A stretch of 64,000 nucleotides of DNA from the human T2T-CHM13v2.0 reference genome, Homo sapiens, in NCBI RefSeq assembly GCF_009914755.1, contig NC_060926.1, one strand, 5' to 3'. Under the pieces are notes generated by a model, which was not told where the DNA came from, did not search any database, and was given only the letters and a program-made list of their open reading frames with translations. Every line of letters begins with the position of its first letter. Within the stretch, counting starts at the first letter, position 1. Shown here in pieces: positions 57,550 through 60,249 of the stretch. Position numbers and translations under genes: made by a program.

Positions 57550-58142
57550 TTATAATGTTTTCAATAAAATGGAGAGATATTGTAAAAATATTTCAAAGGC
57601 TAGTCTTCCTTTTCTTCTAACAAATTCTCTTCATCAGGTCAATTTTCTCAAAATCTTCTCAATTCCAGCTTTCTCCATGTTGGAAACTGAAAGGACAGGG
57701 CTGGGTGGAGAGTGCGCGTATGTGGGGGGTGAGGACATGATAGGGGAGGTTAGAGCTGGCGAAGATGATGTTATAAAGGGTTCCTCTTCCAGATCTCTGC
57801 CAGATTGCTCAGAAGCCGCGTTCTTTCCTCATAGAGCCAGGGAGTGAATTTCTCAAGGCGTCACCAAGCCCTCGCCGGGCAGCAGTGCTGGAAGCAAAGC
57901 GGCGGCAGGATGGGGCTGGGCTTAGGAGCTTTCTGTTTTATATACCCCAATACCTGGGTTTCCCATTTCGGGTATAGGTAGAATCGAGATTACAGGAAAC
58001 CCGAAGCCCCCTGGCCGGGGCAGAGCGGGACCCTTGTTTCCCAGTGTCAAACCGTGCCACCAGCAGGTCCGAGGGGTCCGCAGAGGTGGTGGCAAGGGAC
58101 TTTCTCCCCATTGTAAACCTTTCCCGGAGACCACCTCAGTTA

Positions 58143-58316
58143 GGGTTGTCTCTGCTTGGCACAGTCAGGGAGACCAGCGGGGACAGTGTTGAAGGCCTGG
58201 CTCCTGTTGGTGGGCTCTCCAGCTACCCCGGGTTGTCTCTGCTTGGCACAGTCAGGGAGACCAGCGGGGACAGTGTTGAAGGCCTGGCTCCTGTTGGTGG
58301 GCTCTCCAGCTGCCCC
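58143..58316. repeat. 87-bp tandem duplication (2 copies, 1 mismatch)
   Basis: gggttgtctctgcttggcacag...ctccagct(a/g)cccc at 58143-58229 and 58230-58316. Confidence 0.97.
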
Positions 58317-58750
58317 TTGCTCCCGCCCACCCCCGCCCACTGCAGGTGCAGCTCGTCTCCCGACGCCGCTGGGTGGGGGAGGGGCAACTCTCCAAGCACA
58401 ACCCGCGCTCGGTCCCTCGGCCGCGCTGATTCCCAACCCCCTGGCGGCCGGTGGCACCCGGGACCGCTAAGAGAGGTGGTAGGAGGGACTGGCGAGCCGA
58501 GCGGAGCTAGACTGAGGGGTCCTGCTCTCTCTTACTCATTCTCCTGGAAAAGAGGATCTACGGGGGCTGCAGGCATACGTGCCAAAGGTGGGCTGCTGCC
58601 CGCAGGAGGGATCAGGATAGGACGACCTGGACCCCTCTTCCAGCCTCCCCCGGCAGGCAGTACCCCCTCCACGCCCGCACCTGCCCGGTCCACGCCGAAC
58701 TCACTGAGGACTCGTGTGCCCCCTGCCCTGGAGCTGCGATCCCAAGCGCC

Positions 58751-59568
58751 GTGGAGGCCGCTAGCCTTTCAGTGGCCACCGCCGGCGTTGCCCTTGCCCT
58801 GGGACCCGAGACCAGCAGCAGGACCCGGGACCCCAAGCCCGAGAGGGATACTCGGTTCGACCCCGAGCGGCGCCGTCCTGCCGGGCCGAGGGCCGCCCTT
58901 CTCTGTCTTCACGGTCCTGGTGGTGACGCTGCTAGTGCTGCTGATCGCCGCCACTTTCCTGTGGAACCTGCTGGTTCCGGTCACCATCCCGCGGGTCCGT
59001 GCCTTCCACCGCGTGCCGCATAACTTGGTGGCCTCGACGGCCGTCTCGGACGAACTAGTGGCAGCGCTGGCGATGCCACCGAGCCTGGCGAGTGAGCTGT
59101 CGACCGGGCGACGTCGGCTGCTGGGCCGGAGCCTGTGCCACGTGTGGATCTCCTTCGACGCCGGAGCCTGTGCCACGTGTGGATCTCCTTCCACGGCTGT
59201 GCTGCCCCGCCGGCCTCGGGAACGTGGCGGCCATCGCCCTGGGCCGCGACGGGGCCATCACACGGCACCTGCAGCACACGCTGCGCACCTGCAGCCGCGC
59301 CTCGTTGCTCATGATCGCGCTCACCCGGGTGCCGTCGGCGCTCATCGCCCTCGCGCCGCTGCTCTTTGGCCGGGGCGAGGTGTGCGACGCTCGGCTCCAG
59401 CGCTGCCAGGTGAGCCGGGAACCCTCCTATGCCGCCTTCTCCACCCGCGGCGCCTTCCACCTGCCGCTTGGCGTGGTGCCGTTTGTCTACCGGAAGATCT
59501 ACGAGGCGGCCAAGTTTCGTTTCGGCCGCCGCCGGAGAGCTGTGCTGCCGTTGCCGGCCACCATGCAG
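58751..59568 (+). pseudogene. HTR5BP: 5-HT5B serotonin receptor pseudogene, exon 1 (TM1-TM5); no exon 2 seen in the window
   Basis: Class A GPCR segments [85 protein letters not shown] in three frames; start GTG in Kozak context; +1 shift at ~58820; 35-bp duplication with a 1-bp deletion at 59125-59196; donor CAG|gtgagg at 59568. Confidence 0.93.
59125..59194. repeat. 35-bp tandem duplication inside HTR5BP TM3
   Basis: gccggagcctgtgccacgtgtggatctccttc(g/c)ac twice. Confidence 0.96.
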
Positions 59569-60249
59569 GTGAGGGGTGGGCTGAGGAACGTTGCTTTGGG
59601 GAAGCGGTTGCTAGAGAAGGAGGCGGCTTCGCGAATGGGAGAGTGGGCGGAAGCTTGTACTAATGGAGCGCGCGCCCAGAGATCACCTGGGGCGCACGAG
59701 GACAAGTTTGCCATCAGTTCTTCTGAAGCGGGCACCGAGGGGCTTGTCACCGGCTCACCTGGCACGCAAGTGAGGGGTTCGCCAGCTGCGTACTTGGTGC
59801 GCGCAGAGGAAAGGGTTTCACAATCTGCACGTTAGGGAGGCAGATCTGACACCGACCCACGACGCACGATATGGCCGGAGGGGCTTGTAGGTTCAGCCCG
59901 TCTCAGTAGCGATGAGGGCACATCTTGTTACCTGCACTATCTGTTGTTTTCCCCCTCAAGTGCCCCTGTCCATGTGAGTCCTGGAGCCGCCGGCTTCCTT
60001 GTCCCAACTAGACCTAGAGGGGATGCAGTGGACTGGGAATTCGTCTTTCAGAAATTCCTGTGACCAATCACGCCTTATTTTCTGTCTCCACCGTACCCCA
60101 GTCTATCCTCTGCAGTTCAGAGACTATTCCCCAACTCCATTAGCCAGCACCCTGCCAAGGGGAATAGTGAGGATTTTAAAATATAATAATTGGTGTCACT
60201 TTGCTTTCCTTATCTCAACCCCGGAGCTATCCTCTAGTGATTTAGGAAA

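What the first reader, a model, noticed from the sequence alone, without database searches (positions are those of the whole stretch)
58751..59568. HTR5BP seems to have decayed by a burst of A/T->G/C substitutions (GC-biased gene conversion signature)
Seen codons, compared with my recollection of rodent Htr5b and aminergic GPCR consensus: start ATG->GTG; Leu->Pro ctg->ccg (LVP, TIP, MPP, RVP, VVP); Val->Ala gtg->gcg twice and gtc->gcc; Trp->Arg tgg->cgg four times (RRR, TRV, FGRG, VYRK); Trp->Gly tgg->ggg twice; CCTASIWN->[12 protein letters not shown]->GRDG; Tyr->His twice, Tyr->Cys, Cys->Arg, Gln->Arg, Lys->Glu. Roughly two dozen inferred single-base changes are nearly all weak-to-strong, and include transversions. 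There are no nonsense codons and CpGs are retained, the opposite of normal pseudogene decay. Known: gBGC at recombination hot spots fixes W->S alleles even when deleterious. Inference: a hot spot may have eroded, or even helped kill, this receptor gene; the adjacent 35- and 87-bp duplications fit frequent break repair.
Basis: partly seen in the sequence, partly recalled or inferred. Interest (0 to 1): 0.8.

Follow-up and report, generated by a model that had tools for sequence, protein, structure and literature searches.

The report
Human-lineage GC-biased burst in HTR5BP
The first exon of a dead human serotonin-receptor gene took about ten times more changes than expected on the human lineage, nearly all A/T to G/C, which is the known footprint of recombination-driven biased gene conversion and not of ordinary decay.

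Summary
Window 58751-59568 is exon 1 of the unitary pseudogene HTR5BP. I compared it with real orthologue proteins: chimpanzee, gorilla and gibbon gene models and 17 non-ape mammals.

- Exon 1 carries 28 amino-acid changes found only in the human sequence, in 257 codons. Of these, 26 are inferred weak-to-strong (W>S), 1 strong-to-weak and 1 weak-to-weak.
- The chimpanzee-only count is 3.
- Exon 2, 43 kb downstream, has 0 human-only changes in 111 codons.
- 24 of the changes lie within 451 bp (59053-59503).
- About 3 changes are expected under neutral evolution.
- The paralogue HTR5A carries the ancestral base at 23 of 26 aligned sites, so it was not a donor.
- The exon lies 4.27 Mb from the chromosome 2 fusion junction. 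It was therefore subtelomeric for most of the human branch.

Best reading: GC-biased gene conversion (gBGC) at a human-lineage hot spot eroded an exon that had already lost constraint. The kind of event is known (biased clustered substitutions, gBGC tracts, CpG beacons). I found this locus in no text I could search.

Limit: no ape DNA was available, so synonymous and flanking sites are untested.

The parts
58751..59568 (+). Exon 1 of the unitary pseudogene HTR5BP (former start codon to splice donor). Its control, exon 2, lies outside the window at G000:C2:118336361-118336693 (window place 102361-102693): an open frame of 111 codons with 0 human-only changes.
   Evidence: Translations. Best protein matches are HTR5B orthologues. 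Only this locus and HTR5A match in the genome. CAG|gtgagg donor seen.
58751..58753 (+). Former start codon, now GTG (inferred ATG>GTG, W>S, human-only)
   Evidence: All 17 non-ape orthologues and the three ape models have Met.
58820..58829 (+). Ten bases where the ape models have one Ser codon: net +7, a frameshift that looks like a short tandem copy
58977..59503 (+). Core of the burst: 26 of the 28 human-only substitutions, 24 of them W>S. At most 24 in any 500 bp and 19 in 300 bp.
59125..59195 (+). 35-bp tandem duplication (frameshift). The copies differ at one base (59157 G against 59192 C), and none of the 24 W sites in the two copies is changed.
59195..59196 (+). Two bases left of the Val codon that follows Phe-Asp in all orthologues (1-bp deletion). 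The chimpanzee model keeps the Val.
59242..59253 (+). Codons of the former DRYW motif, now GRDG (three human-only W>S changes)
59432..59444 (+). Single match to the PRDM9-type 13-mer CCNCCNTNNCCNC. The inferred human-only T>C at 59435 completes it. Not statistically notable.
   Evidence: 3 matches in the window, 1.16 expected, 12 of 100 shuffles reach 3. for the substitution.
57900..60000 (.). GC-rich CpG-island-like block around the exon (GC 0.58-0.72). CpG observed/expected is 0.97 in the exon and 0.52 and 0.62 in the 800-bp flanks.
58143..58316 (+). 87-bp tandem duplication upstream of the exon; the copies differ at one base (58225 A against 58312 G)

Best explanation
The stretch is exon 1 of the dead serotonin receptor gene HTR5BP. 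After this sequence separated from the chimpanzee and gorilla sequences, the exon fixed at least 28 amino-acid-changing single-base substitutions where about 3 are expected. Of these, 26 are A/T to G/C, and 24 are packed into 451 bp. Exon 2, 43 kb away, fixed none.

The most likely cause is GC-biased gene conversion at a recombination hot spot. That hot spot would have been active on the human lineage while this part of chromosome 2 still lay about 4.3 Mb from a chromosome end, before the 2q fusion. In heteroduplex DNA formed during meiotic recombination, mismatch repair favours G/C alleles. New W>S mutations are then transmitted more often and go to fixation whatever their effect.

The gene had already lost constraint, so the drive eroded a dead exon and did not kill it.

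Shown here: the counts, their polarity, their branch, their confinement to exon 1, the absence of a paralogous donor, and the distance to the fusion junction. Inferred: the hot spot, the conversion bias as the mechanism, and the order of events.
For: (1) Direction. 26 W>S, 1 S>W and 1 W>W among 28 human-only changes. The null W>S share is 0.434, P = 5.9e-9.

(2) Rate and branch. 28 human-only against 3 chimpanzee-only changes, P = 4.6e-6. Against the chimpanzee-only plus chimpanzee+gorilla-shared total of 7, P = 5e-4. The neutral expectation is 3.2 changes at a recalled 0.006 per site, Poisson P = 2e-17; at double that rate P = 3e-10.

(3) Locality. Exon 1 has 28 changes in 257 codons and exon 2 has 0 in 111, Fisher P = 4.7e-5. 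26 of the 28 meet the 300-bp clustering rule and lie in windows with at least 80% W>S.

(4) Polarity at base level. HTR5A has the inferred ancestral base at 23 of 26 aligned sites and the derived base at 1.

(5) No strand effect. W>S changes start from T 16 times and from A 10 times, against transition opportunities of 135 and 84. The transition to transversion ratio is 22:4, as expected if ordinary mutations are filtered by a fixation bias.

(6) Position. A unique head-to-head telomere junction lies at chr2:114027649-114027668, 4,265,083 bp from the exon. Capra et al. [quoted passage not shown] Poszewiecka et al. 2022 (PMC9413910, abstract and passages) date the fusion to 0.9 Mya.

(7) Constraint already lost. 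Chimpanzee-only (3-4) and gorilla-only (5) changes fit the neutral rate and reject dN/dS of 0.1 (P = 0.012 to 0.0001). The DRY arginine is lost in chimpanzee and gibbon, and a conserved TM3 Trp is lost in human, chimpanzee and gorilla.
Against: - Only amino-acid-changing sites could be seen, because no ape DNA was reachable. The key prediction that synonymous, intronic and flanking sites share the bias is untested.
- The two crude flank comparisons show no strong skew. For intron 1 against a Rhinopithecus read-through model, human-S/other-W is 10 and human-W/other-S is 5, with 14 multi-step and partly mis-framed positions. For the 5' flank against a Callithrix model the counts are 5 and 3. Both comparisons are unpolarised and span long branches.
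- The chimpanzee region is still subtelomeric, yet its branch has only 3-4 changes here. Position alone does not explain the burst; a lineage-specific hot spot has to be assumed.
- About 11.7% of replaceable W sites changed (26 of about 223). That needs a very strong or long-lasting drive, or some added mutation.
- The exon is not in the Consensus HAQER tables.
- The ape sequences are gene-model translations with gaps: chimpanzee lacks 11 residues, gorilla 12 and gibbon more.
- The human side is a single haplotype.
Confidence: 0.7

Rival explanations
1. A local mutational hot spot with a W>S-biased spectrum, for example error-prone repair synthesis at recurrent breaks, raised the input of A/T>G/C mutations, and these then fixed neutrally.
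For: The share of W sites changed (26 of about 223) is very high for a fixation bias alone. Three tandem duplications of 7, 35 and 87 bp lie in or beside the exon. Luo et al. (bioRxiv 10.1101/2025.10.20.683446, section read) report elevated mutation rates in the fastest-evolved human regions.
Against: From recalled general knowledge, no known germline process gives 26:1 W>S, and recombination-associated mutations are reported as mainly S>W or C>G. There is no strand asymmetry. The transition to transversion ratio is ordinary (22:4).
Confidence: 0.1
2. gBGC supplied the changes, but selection for a denser CpG island (a human-specific regulatory element, a 'CpG beacon') helped to fix the changes that create CpG.
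For: 15 of 22 W>S transitions create a CpG, against a null share of 0.434 (P = 0.017). Overall 16 CpG were gained and 1 lost, against 8 GpC gained, which is 21 CpG gains per kb over 58751-59503. Abeykoon et al. 2025 (bioRxiv 10.1101/2025.11.30.691411, abstract and passages) propose this model for 107 HAQER CpG Beacons, including loci near the fusion (DPP10, SLC35F5).
Against: The CpG excess is modest. It could equally reflect stronger repair bias at T:G mismatches in CpG context (recalled: MBD4 and TDG). The exon was already CpG-rich before the burst, at 0.90 observed/expected. The annotation supplied lists no regulatory element here. No expression or chromatin data were available.
Confidence: 0.1
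3. The biased drive was the cause of death: it fixed the first disabling substitutions while the receptor was still functional.
For: The non-human African-ape branches also lean W>S, 7 against 2 by the strict rule (P = 0.04) and 10 against 2 with the set-aside sites (P = 0.006). They hit conserved residues, namely the Trp at 59218 and the Leu at 59332. The 35-bp duplication carries no W>S hit at 24 W sites (P = 0.05 if it is older than the burst), so at least that frameshift may be younger than the burst.
Against: Chimpanzee and gorilla branches evolve at the neutral rate, and all three ape models have lost key residues or need gaps. This points to loss of constraint before the human burst. 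Changes on the older hominoid and hominine stems are mostly S>W by hand count. Frameshifts in the apes cannot be seen from protein models.
Confidence: 0.07
4. Ordinary neutral decay of a pseudogene in an unmethylated CpG island, with no special process.
For: The gene is dead, and the exon lies in a CpG-rich block, which would spare CpGs.
Against: The rate is about 9 times the neutral expectation and the direction is 26:1. Exon 2 of the same dead gene has 0 human-only changes. The chimpanzee copy of the same exon has 3.
Confidence: 0.01
5. Artefact: wrong ape gene models, an assembly error, or a haplotype private to this genome.
For: The chimpanzee, gorilla and gibbon sequences are automatic models with gaps. 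Only one human haplotype was seen.
Against: Two independent ape assemblies agree with each other and with 17 other mammals at the sites where they have residues, and each carries private changes of its own. Errors would not restore ancestral residues at 28 sites. RefSeq places HTR5BP at exactly this start. Secondary sources say the human gene has insertions and is broken (PMC5613149, passage).
Confidence: 0.02

Closest known systems
Biased clustered substitutions and phastBias gBGC tracts around the chromosome 2 fusion (Dreszer et al. 2007, recalled and quoted in PMC9413910; Capra et al. 2013, PMC3744432)
   Same: A dense cluster of human-branch substitutions with at least 80% W>S, on a scale of a few hundred bp, in the formerly subtelomeric region beside the 2q fusion.
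   Different: This case sits on a highly conserved GPCR exon, so each hit is polarised by 17 orthologues and a paralogue. I could not check whether the exon lies in a published tract.
HAR1
   Same: An element conserved in other mammals, with an extreme run of changes on the human branch in a region of biased conversion. The figure of 18 changes in 118 bp is as quoted in Bell et al. 2012, PMC3469460.
   Different: HAR1 is a functional non-coding RNA and is denser. Here the element is a dead coding exon, with 19 visible changes in 300 bp, and no function is claimed.
CpG beacon clusters (Bell et al. 2012, PMC3469460) and HAQER CpG Beacons (Abeykoon et al. 2025 preprint)
   Same: Human-specific gain of many CpGs in a CpG island, attributed to biased conversion. 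Both are enriched at chromosome ends and at the 2q fusion point. Here 16 CpG gains are visible in 753 bp.
   Different: The thresholds are 17 or 20 per kb. Only amino-acid-changing sites were visible here, so membership is undecided. The locus is not named in the text of either paper. Their tables could not be read.
HTR5BP as described by Grailhe et al. 2001 (not held; known through PMC5613149, and the search listing)
   Same: The same gene: the human 5-HT5B coding sequence is interrupted and non-functional.
   Different: The secondary account speaks of stop codons and insertions. In this assembly exon 1 has no in-frame stop within the three frame pieces. It has three indels and a lost start codon, and exon 2 is an intact open frame. 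I found no mention of a W>S bias or of a human-branch burst.
gBGC-driven fixation of deleterious amino-acid changes in primate genes (Galtier et al. 2009; Berglund et al. 2009; both recalled, not read here)
   Same: W>S clusters that change conserved residues regardless of fitness.
   Different: Those scans used intact protein-coding genes. A pseudogene such as this one would have been left out.

Membership tests
Biased clustered substitutions (definition quoted in PMC9413910) | [quoted passage not shown] | tested here: met
   26 of 28 inferred human-branch substitutions qualify, with a maximum of 19 in 300 bp. Only amino-acid-changing sites are counted.
Biased clustered substitutions (definition quoted in PMC9413910) | At least 80% of the substitutions in the window are weak-to-strong | tested here: met
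   26 of 28 lie in such a window; 18 of 19 in 59206-59505 are W>S.
gBGC tract | W>S excess polarised to one lineage | tested here: met
   Human-only counts are 26 W>S, 1 S>W and 1 W>W; chimpanzee-only counts are 2 W>S and 1 S>W.
gBGC tract | The same bias at synonymous, intronic and flanking sites (a selectively blind process) | tested here: inconclusive
   No ape DNA was available. Crude unpolarised flank comparisons give 10 against 5 and 5 against 3.
gBGC tract | Located in a region or hot spot of high recombination | tested here: inconclusive
   The exon lies 4,265,083 bp from the fusion junction, so it was formerly subtelomeric (literature). No recombination map could be consulted. There is one PRDM9-type motif, which is not significant.
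gBGC tract | Derived-allele-frequency skew, or overlap with a phastBias tract | not testable with these tools
   No polymorphism data or tract files are held.
HAQER (Mangan 2022; Luo et al., method read) | At least 29 divergences from the human-chimpanzee ancestor in a 500-bp window | tested here: inconclusive
   24 visible substitutions in the best window, plus up to 2 indels. Synonymous changes are unseen.
HAQER (Mangan 2022; Luo et al., method read) | Listed in the published Consensus HAQER set | tested here: not met
   No entry with the coordinate strings 11829 (this assembly) or 11785/11786 (my recalled GRCh38 estimate) on chr2 in the 4 supplementary tables of PMC13689511. The 2022 list is not held.
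CpG beacon cluster | At least 17 (refined) or 20 (extreme) human-specific CpGs per kb | tested here: inconclusive
   16 CpG gains are visible within 753 bp from amino-acid-changing sites alone. The polymorphism filter and the silent sites were not testable.
Unitary pseudogene of HTR5B | Single orthologous locus with the exon structure kept and no functional duplicate | tested here: met
   Exons 1 and 2 match HTR5B best. The DNA search finds only this locus and HTR5A at 71% identity.
Unitary pseudogene of HTR5B | Disabling lesions | tested here: met
   GTG in place of ATG, indels of +7, +35 and -1 bp, and the DRYW motif destroyed.
Human accelerated region (concept) | Conserved in other mammals and accelerated on the human branch | tested here: met
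   21 of 28 sites are invariant in all 17 non-ape orthologues. The relative-rate test is 28 against 3. Formal phyloP or phastCons tests were not run, and published sets exclude such elements or could not be checked.

The most novel reading that the evidence does not exclude
The same subtelomeric drive was already acting in the African-ape ancestor. The non-human ape branches also lean W>S (7-10 against 2) and hit conserved Trp and Leu residues. On this reading the drive fixed the first function-destroying substitutions, so biased gene conversion and not relaxed selection cost the hominids a serotonin receptor. The human burst then turned the dead exon into a denser CpG island that may now act as a human-specific regulatory element.
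Probability: 0.1. Interest if true: 0.75.

Novelty: new member of a known kind. Interest (0 to 1): 0.5.

Why it matters
This is an unusually clean natural example of how a recombination-linked transmission bias can rewrite a sequence. Each of the 28 hits falls on a residue fixed across mammals, so direction and branch can be read without a model. A second exon of the same dead gene serves as an internal control.

It shows that the shape of pseudogene decay (no stop codons, CpG gain, Trp>Arg, Leu>Pro) can be set by local recombination history and not by mutation alone. That matters for dating gene losses and for scans that read human-specific acceleration as adaptation.

It also adds a datable marker to the formerly subtelomeric region beside the chromosome 2 fusion. 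If archaic genomes share the changes, they bound the activity of the hot spot.

Tried and rejected
- **Ape or other primate DNA.** No collection holds it. A scan of genome contigs with alignment A1 gave 28 pattern matches and 0 confirmed loci.
- **Unnamed metagenome-derived proteins.** I compared 23 of them with named species. None is primate; the nearest are Lynx, Bos, Rattus and similar.
- **Second protein search.** A search with the chimpanzee model found no further apes among the 120 listed of 343 hits.
- **Interlocus conversion.** HTR5A has the derived base at 1 of 26 sites, and no other paralogue exists. Rejected.
- **Strand-specific mutation (editing, transcription-coupled).** The origin bases match the opportunities. 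Rejected.
- **PRDM9 motif as evidence for a hot spot.** 3 matches in 64 kb against 1.16 expected, and 12 of 100 shuffles reach 3. Not used as support.
- **Flank comparisons through read-through gene models.** Noisy and unpolarised. Inconclusive.
- **HAQER look-up.** Not listed.
- **Papers and tables not reachable.** Mangan 2022 and Dreszer 2007 are not held. Supplement Table S1 of Bell 2012 could not be opened, because the supplement road closed. The exon could therefore be in their lists without my knowing.
- **Literature searches for this locus.** HTR5BP gave 13 papers, none on evolution of the sequence apart from a pseudogene catalogue (PMC7555810, passages). 'HTR5B' with 'biased gene conversion' gave 0. 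'HTR5B' with 'human accelerated' gave 0. 'Unitary pseudogene' with 'biased gene conversion' gave 6, none relevant by title or abstract.
- **Earlier findings of this scan.** Not open.

Full report
**What is there.**

Window 58751-59568 (+) is exon 1 of HTR5BP. It reads without stops in three frame pieces: 58751-58819, 58830-59159 and 59197-59568. Three indels separate the pieces:
- ten bases at 58820-58829 stand where the ape models have one Ser codon (net +7);
- a 35-bp tandem duplication lies at 59125-59195;
- two bases at 59195-59196 are what is left of a Val codon (net -1).

The first codon is GTG. The donor CAG|gtgagg is kept. The exon lies in a GC-rich block (GC 0.58-0.72). CpG observed/expected is 0.97 in the exon and 0.52 and 0.62 in the 800-bp flanks. 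An 87-bp tandem duplication lies upstream at 58143-58316.

**Comparison sequences.**

The protein database holds eukaryotic proteins. A search with the third frame piece gave 169 hits at E <= 0.001, of which 120 were listed. From these I chose 20 HTR5B sequences:
- chimpanzee, gorilla and gibbon gene models;
- two Old World monkeys, one marmoset and two lemurs;
- 12 other mammals.

I added human HTR5A and aligned all of them with the human conceptual translation. The remaining listed hits were not used. They are further orthologues of the same clades, HTR5A sequences, or unnamed metagenome proteins. I checked 23 of the unnamed ones and none is primate. A second search with the chimpanzee model found no further apes. 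The green monkey protein is full length (370 residues) with all motifs, so the gene looks intact in Old World monkeys.

**The central result.**

The human translation is only 76-80% identical to chimpanzee and gorilla over exon 1. The reason is that the apes keep the ancestral residues.

I assigned changes to branches with a strict parsimony rule. A state counts as ancestral if it is seen in gibbon, an Old World monkey, marmoset, or the majority of the 17 non-ape orthologues. Under this rule the 257 exon-1 codons give:

| Branch | Changes |
|---|---|
| Human-only | 28 |
| Chimpanzee-only | 3 |
| Gorilla-only | 3 |
| Chimpanzee+gorilla shared (human ancestral) | 4 |
| Human+chimpanzee shared | 1 |

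The rule set aside five columns as homoplasic or three-state: codons at 58854, 59218, 59245, 59422 and 59563. The 10 inserted bases and the second copy of the duplication were not analysed as codons.

For each human-only change, exactly one single-base neighbour of the human codon encodes the ancestral residue. This gives 26 W>S, 1 S>W (CGC>TGC at 59290) and 1 W>W (at 59053). At 26 of the 28 sites none of the 17 non-ape orthologues has the human residue, and 21 sites are invariant in all 17. Human HTR5A has the inferred ancestral base at 23 of 26 aligned sites and the derived base at one.

**Is it more than chance?**

- **Direction.** If all single-base replacement changes were equally likely on the inferred pre-burst exon, W>S would be 0.434 of W>S plus S>W. 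Finding 26 of 27 gives P = 5.9e-9. A realistic S>W-biased mutation spectrum would make this more extreme.
- **Branch.** 28 human-only against 3 chimpanzee-only changes gives P = 4.6e-6.
- **Allowing for a different local tree.** If the local tree groups chimpanzee with gorilla (see below), the fair comparison is 28 against 7, P = 5e-4.
- **Rate.** At a recalled neutral human-branch rate of 0.006 per site, about 3.2 replacement changes are expected in about 536 replacement sites. The Poisson P is 2e-17, and at double that rate 3e-10.
- **Clustering.** The changes are clustered: 26 lie in 58977-59503, at most 24 in any 500 bp, and 19 in 300 bp, of which 18 are W>S.

**Internal control.**

Exon 2 was found in the window's own genome at G000:C2:118336361-118336693, 43 kb downstream. 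It is an intact open frame of 111 codons with all conserved motifs. It has no human-only change and one K>R shared with gorilla. Exon 1 against exon 2 gives Fisher P = 4.7e-5. The burst is therefore a local event, not a property of the dead gene as a whole.

**Extent of the burst.**

Two gene models happen to read into the flanks. A Rhinopithecus model runs into intron 1 and a Callithrix model starts upstream. Compared with the human DNA they show no strong skew: 10 against 5 and 5 against 3 for human-S/other-W against human-W/other-S. Parts are mis-framed, and the comparisons are unpolarised over tens of millions of years. I take this only as a hint that the burst is confined to roughly 58977-59503.

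**Nature of the process.**

- The W>S changes start from T 16 times and from A 10 times, matching the opportunities of 135 and 84. No strand-specific process is indicated.
- Transitions outnumber transversions 22 to 4.
- Fifteen of the 22 transitions create a CpG (null share 0.434, P = 0.017).
- Overall 16 CpGs were gained and 1 lost, and 8 GpC were gained.
- Only 1 of 62 stop-creating single-base changes is W>S. This explains the lack of nonsense codons. By itself that lack is not significant.
- The exon was CpG-rich before the burst, at about 0.90 observed/expected. CpG retention is therefore not special, but CpG gain is.

**Chromosomal setting.**

A unique head-to-head telomere-repeat junction lies at chr2:114027649-114027668 of this assembly. 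There are 13 TTAGGG units on its left and 43 CCCTAA units on its right within 3 kb. The exon is 4,265,083 bp distal to it.

- Capra et al. 2013 (PMC3744432, passages read) describe a dense cluster of predicted human gBGC tracts at the fusion. [quoted passage not shown]
- Poszewiecka et al. 2022 (PMC9413910, abstract and passages) date the fusion to 0.9 Mya (0.4-1.5).
- Bell et al. 2012 (PMC3469460, two sections read) note CpG-beacon peaks at the fusion point and their overlap with biased-conversion regions.
- Abeykoon et al. 2025 (preprint, abstract and passages) tie such CpG gain to gBGC, possibly with selection.

**Order of events.**

Chimpanzee-only (3-4) and gorilla-only (5, both exons) replacement changes fit the neutral expectation of 4.6 and reject a constrained rate of dN/dS 0.1 (P = 0.012 to 0.0001).

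Key residues are gone in the other apes too. The DRY arginine is lost in chimpanzee and, in parallel, in gibbon. The conserved Trp at 59218 is Gly in human and chimpanzee and Arg in gorilla. All three ape models need gaps. I therefore infer that constraint was lost before the human burst.

Against this, the 35-bp duplication has no W>S hit at its 24 W sites (P = 0.05 if it predates the burst). At least that lesion may therefore be younger than the burst. The non-human African-ape branches also lean W>S: 7 against 2 by the strict rule, and 10 against 2 with the set-aside sites. A role of the drive in the original loss cannot be excluded.

**Odd feature.**

Four sites by the strict rule (five with 59422) show a derived residue shared by chimpanzee and gorilla while human is ancestral. 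One or two sites are shared by human and chimpanzee. The two kinds are interleaved along the exon. This fits incomplete lineage sorting with a chimpanzee-gorilla tree, or parallel fixation of old polymorphisms. Luo et al. (section read) note that such regions can mimic human-specific divergence. It would lengthen the human branch by a modest factor, not nine-fold, and it would not produce a 26:1 direction.

**Known or new.**

The kind is well known. I found no text that ties HTR5BP to it:
- HTR5BP gave 13 papers, none on this;
- 'HTR5B' with 'biased gene conversion' gave 0;
- 'HTR5B' with 'human accelerated' gave 0.

The exon is absent from the four supplementary tables of the Consensus HAQER paper. 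With 24 visible substitutions per 500 bp it sits just under the cut of 29, unless silent changes add to the count. Lists that might hold it could not be seen: phastBias tracts, the Dreszer top regions, Table S1 of Bell 2012, and the 2022 HAQER list.

**Verdict.**

This is a new, very clean member of a known kind.

Noticed in passing
window 59091, 59269, 59305, 59422, 59512 (codon starts): Chimpanzee and gorilla share a derived residue while human keeps the ancestral one (4 sites by the strict rule, 5 with 59422). These sites are interleaved with 1-2 sites shared by human and chimpanzee. This looks like incomplete lineage sorting or parallel fixation within one exon.
   Followed up: partly
window 59218 and 59245: Recurrent hits at the same conserved codons. 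The Trp at 59218 is Gly in human and chimpanzee but Arg in gorilla. The DRY arginine at 59245 became Gly independently in chimpanzee and gibbon, while human keeps it.
   Followed up: no
outside the window, G000:C2:118336361-118336693 (window place 102361-102693): Exon 2 of the pseudogene is still a perfect open frame with the CWxP and NPxxY motifs, an intact acceptor and its stop codon, although the gene seems to have been unconstrained since before the African-ape split.
   Followed up: partly
window 59432-59444: The only PRDM9-type 13-mer near the exon is completed by one of the human-only T>C changes (59435). The count in the window is not above chance.
   Followed up: partly
window 57978-59663: A 561-codon stop-free frame on the + strand runs through the upstream CpG island and the exon. 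It is most simply a by-product of the high GC content, not a gene.
   Followed up: no
window 58143-58316: An 87-bp tandem duplication in the upstream CpG-rich block; the copies differ at one base (A/G). Its age and any link to the burst are unknown.
   Followed up: partly
chr2 of this assembly, 113927218-113929176, 117486817-117487921 and 117508115-117509085 (outside the window): Three published Consensus HAQERs, seen in part 1 of 8 of the first supplementary table of PMC13689511, lie between the fusion junction and this locus. The nearest is about 0.8 Mb away. The neighbourhood therefore holds other fast-evolved human elements.
   Followed up: no
protein P0032 (Rhinopithecus) and P0019 (Callithrix): These database gene models read through into intron 1 and into the 5' flank respectively, so they are not true protein ends. 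They were useful here as accidental samples of non-coding sequence.
   Followed up: yes
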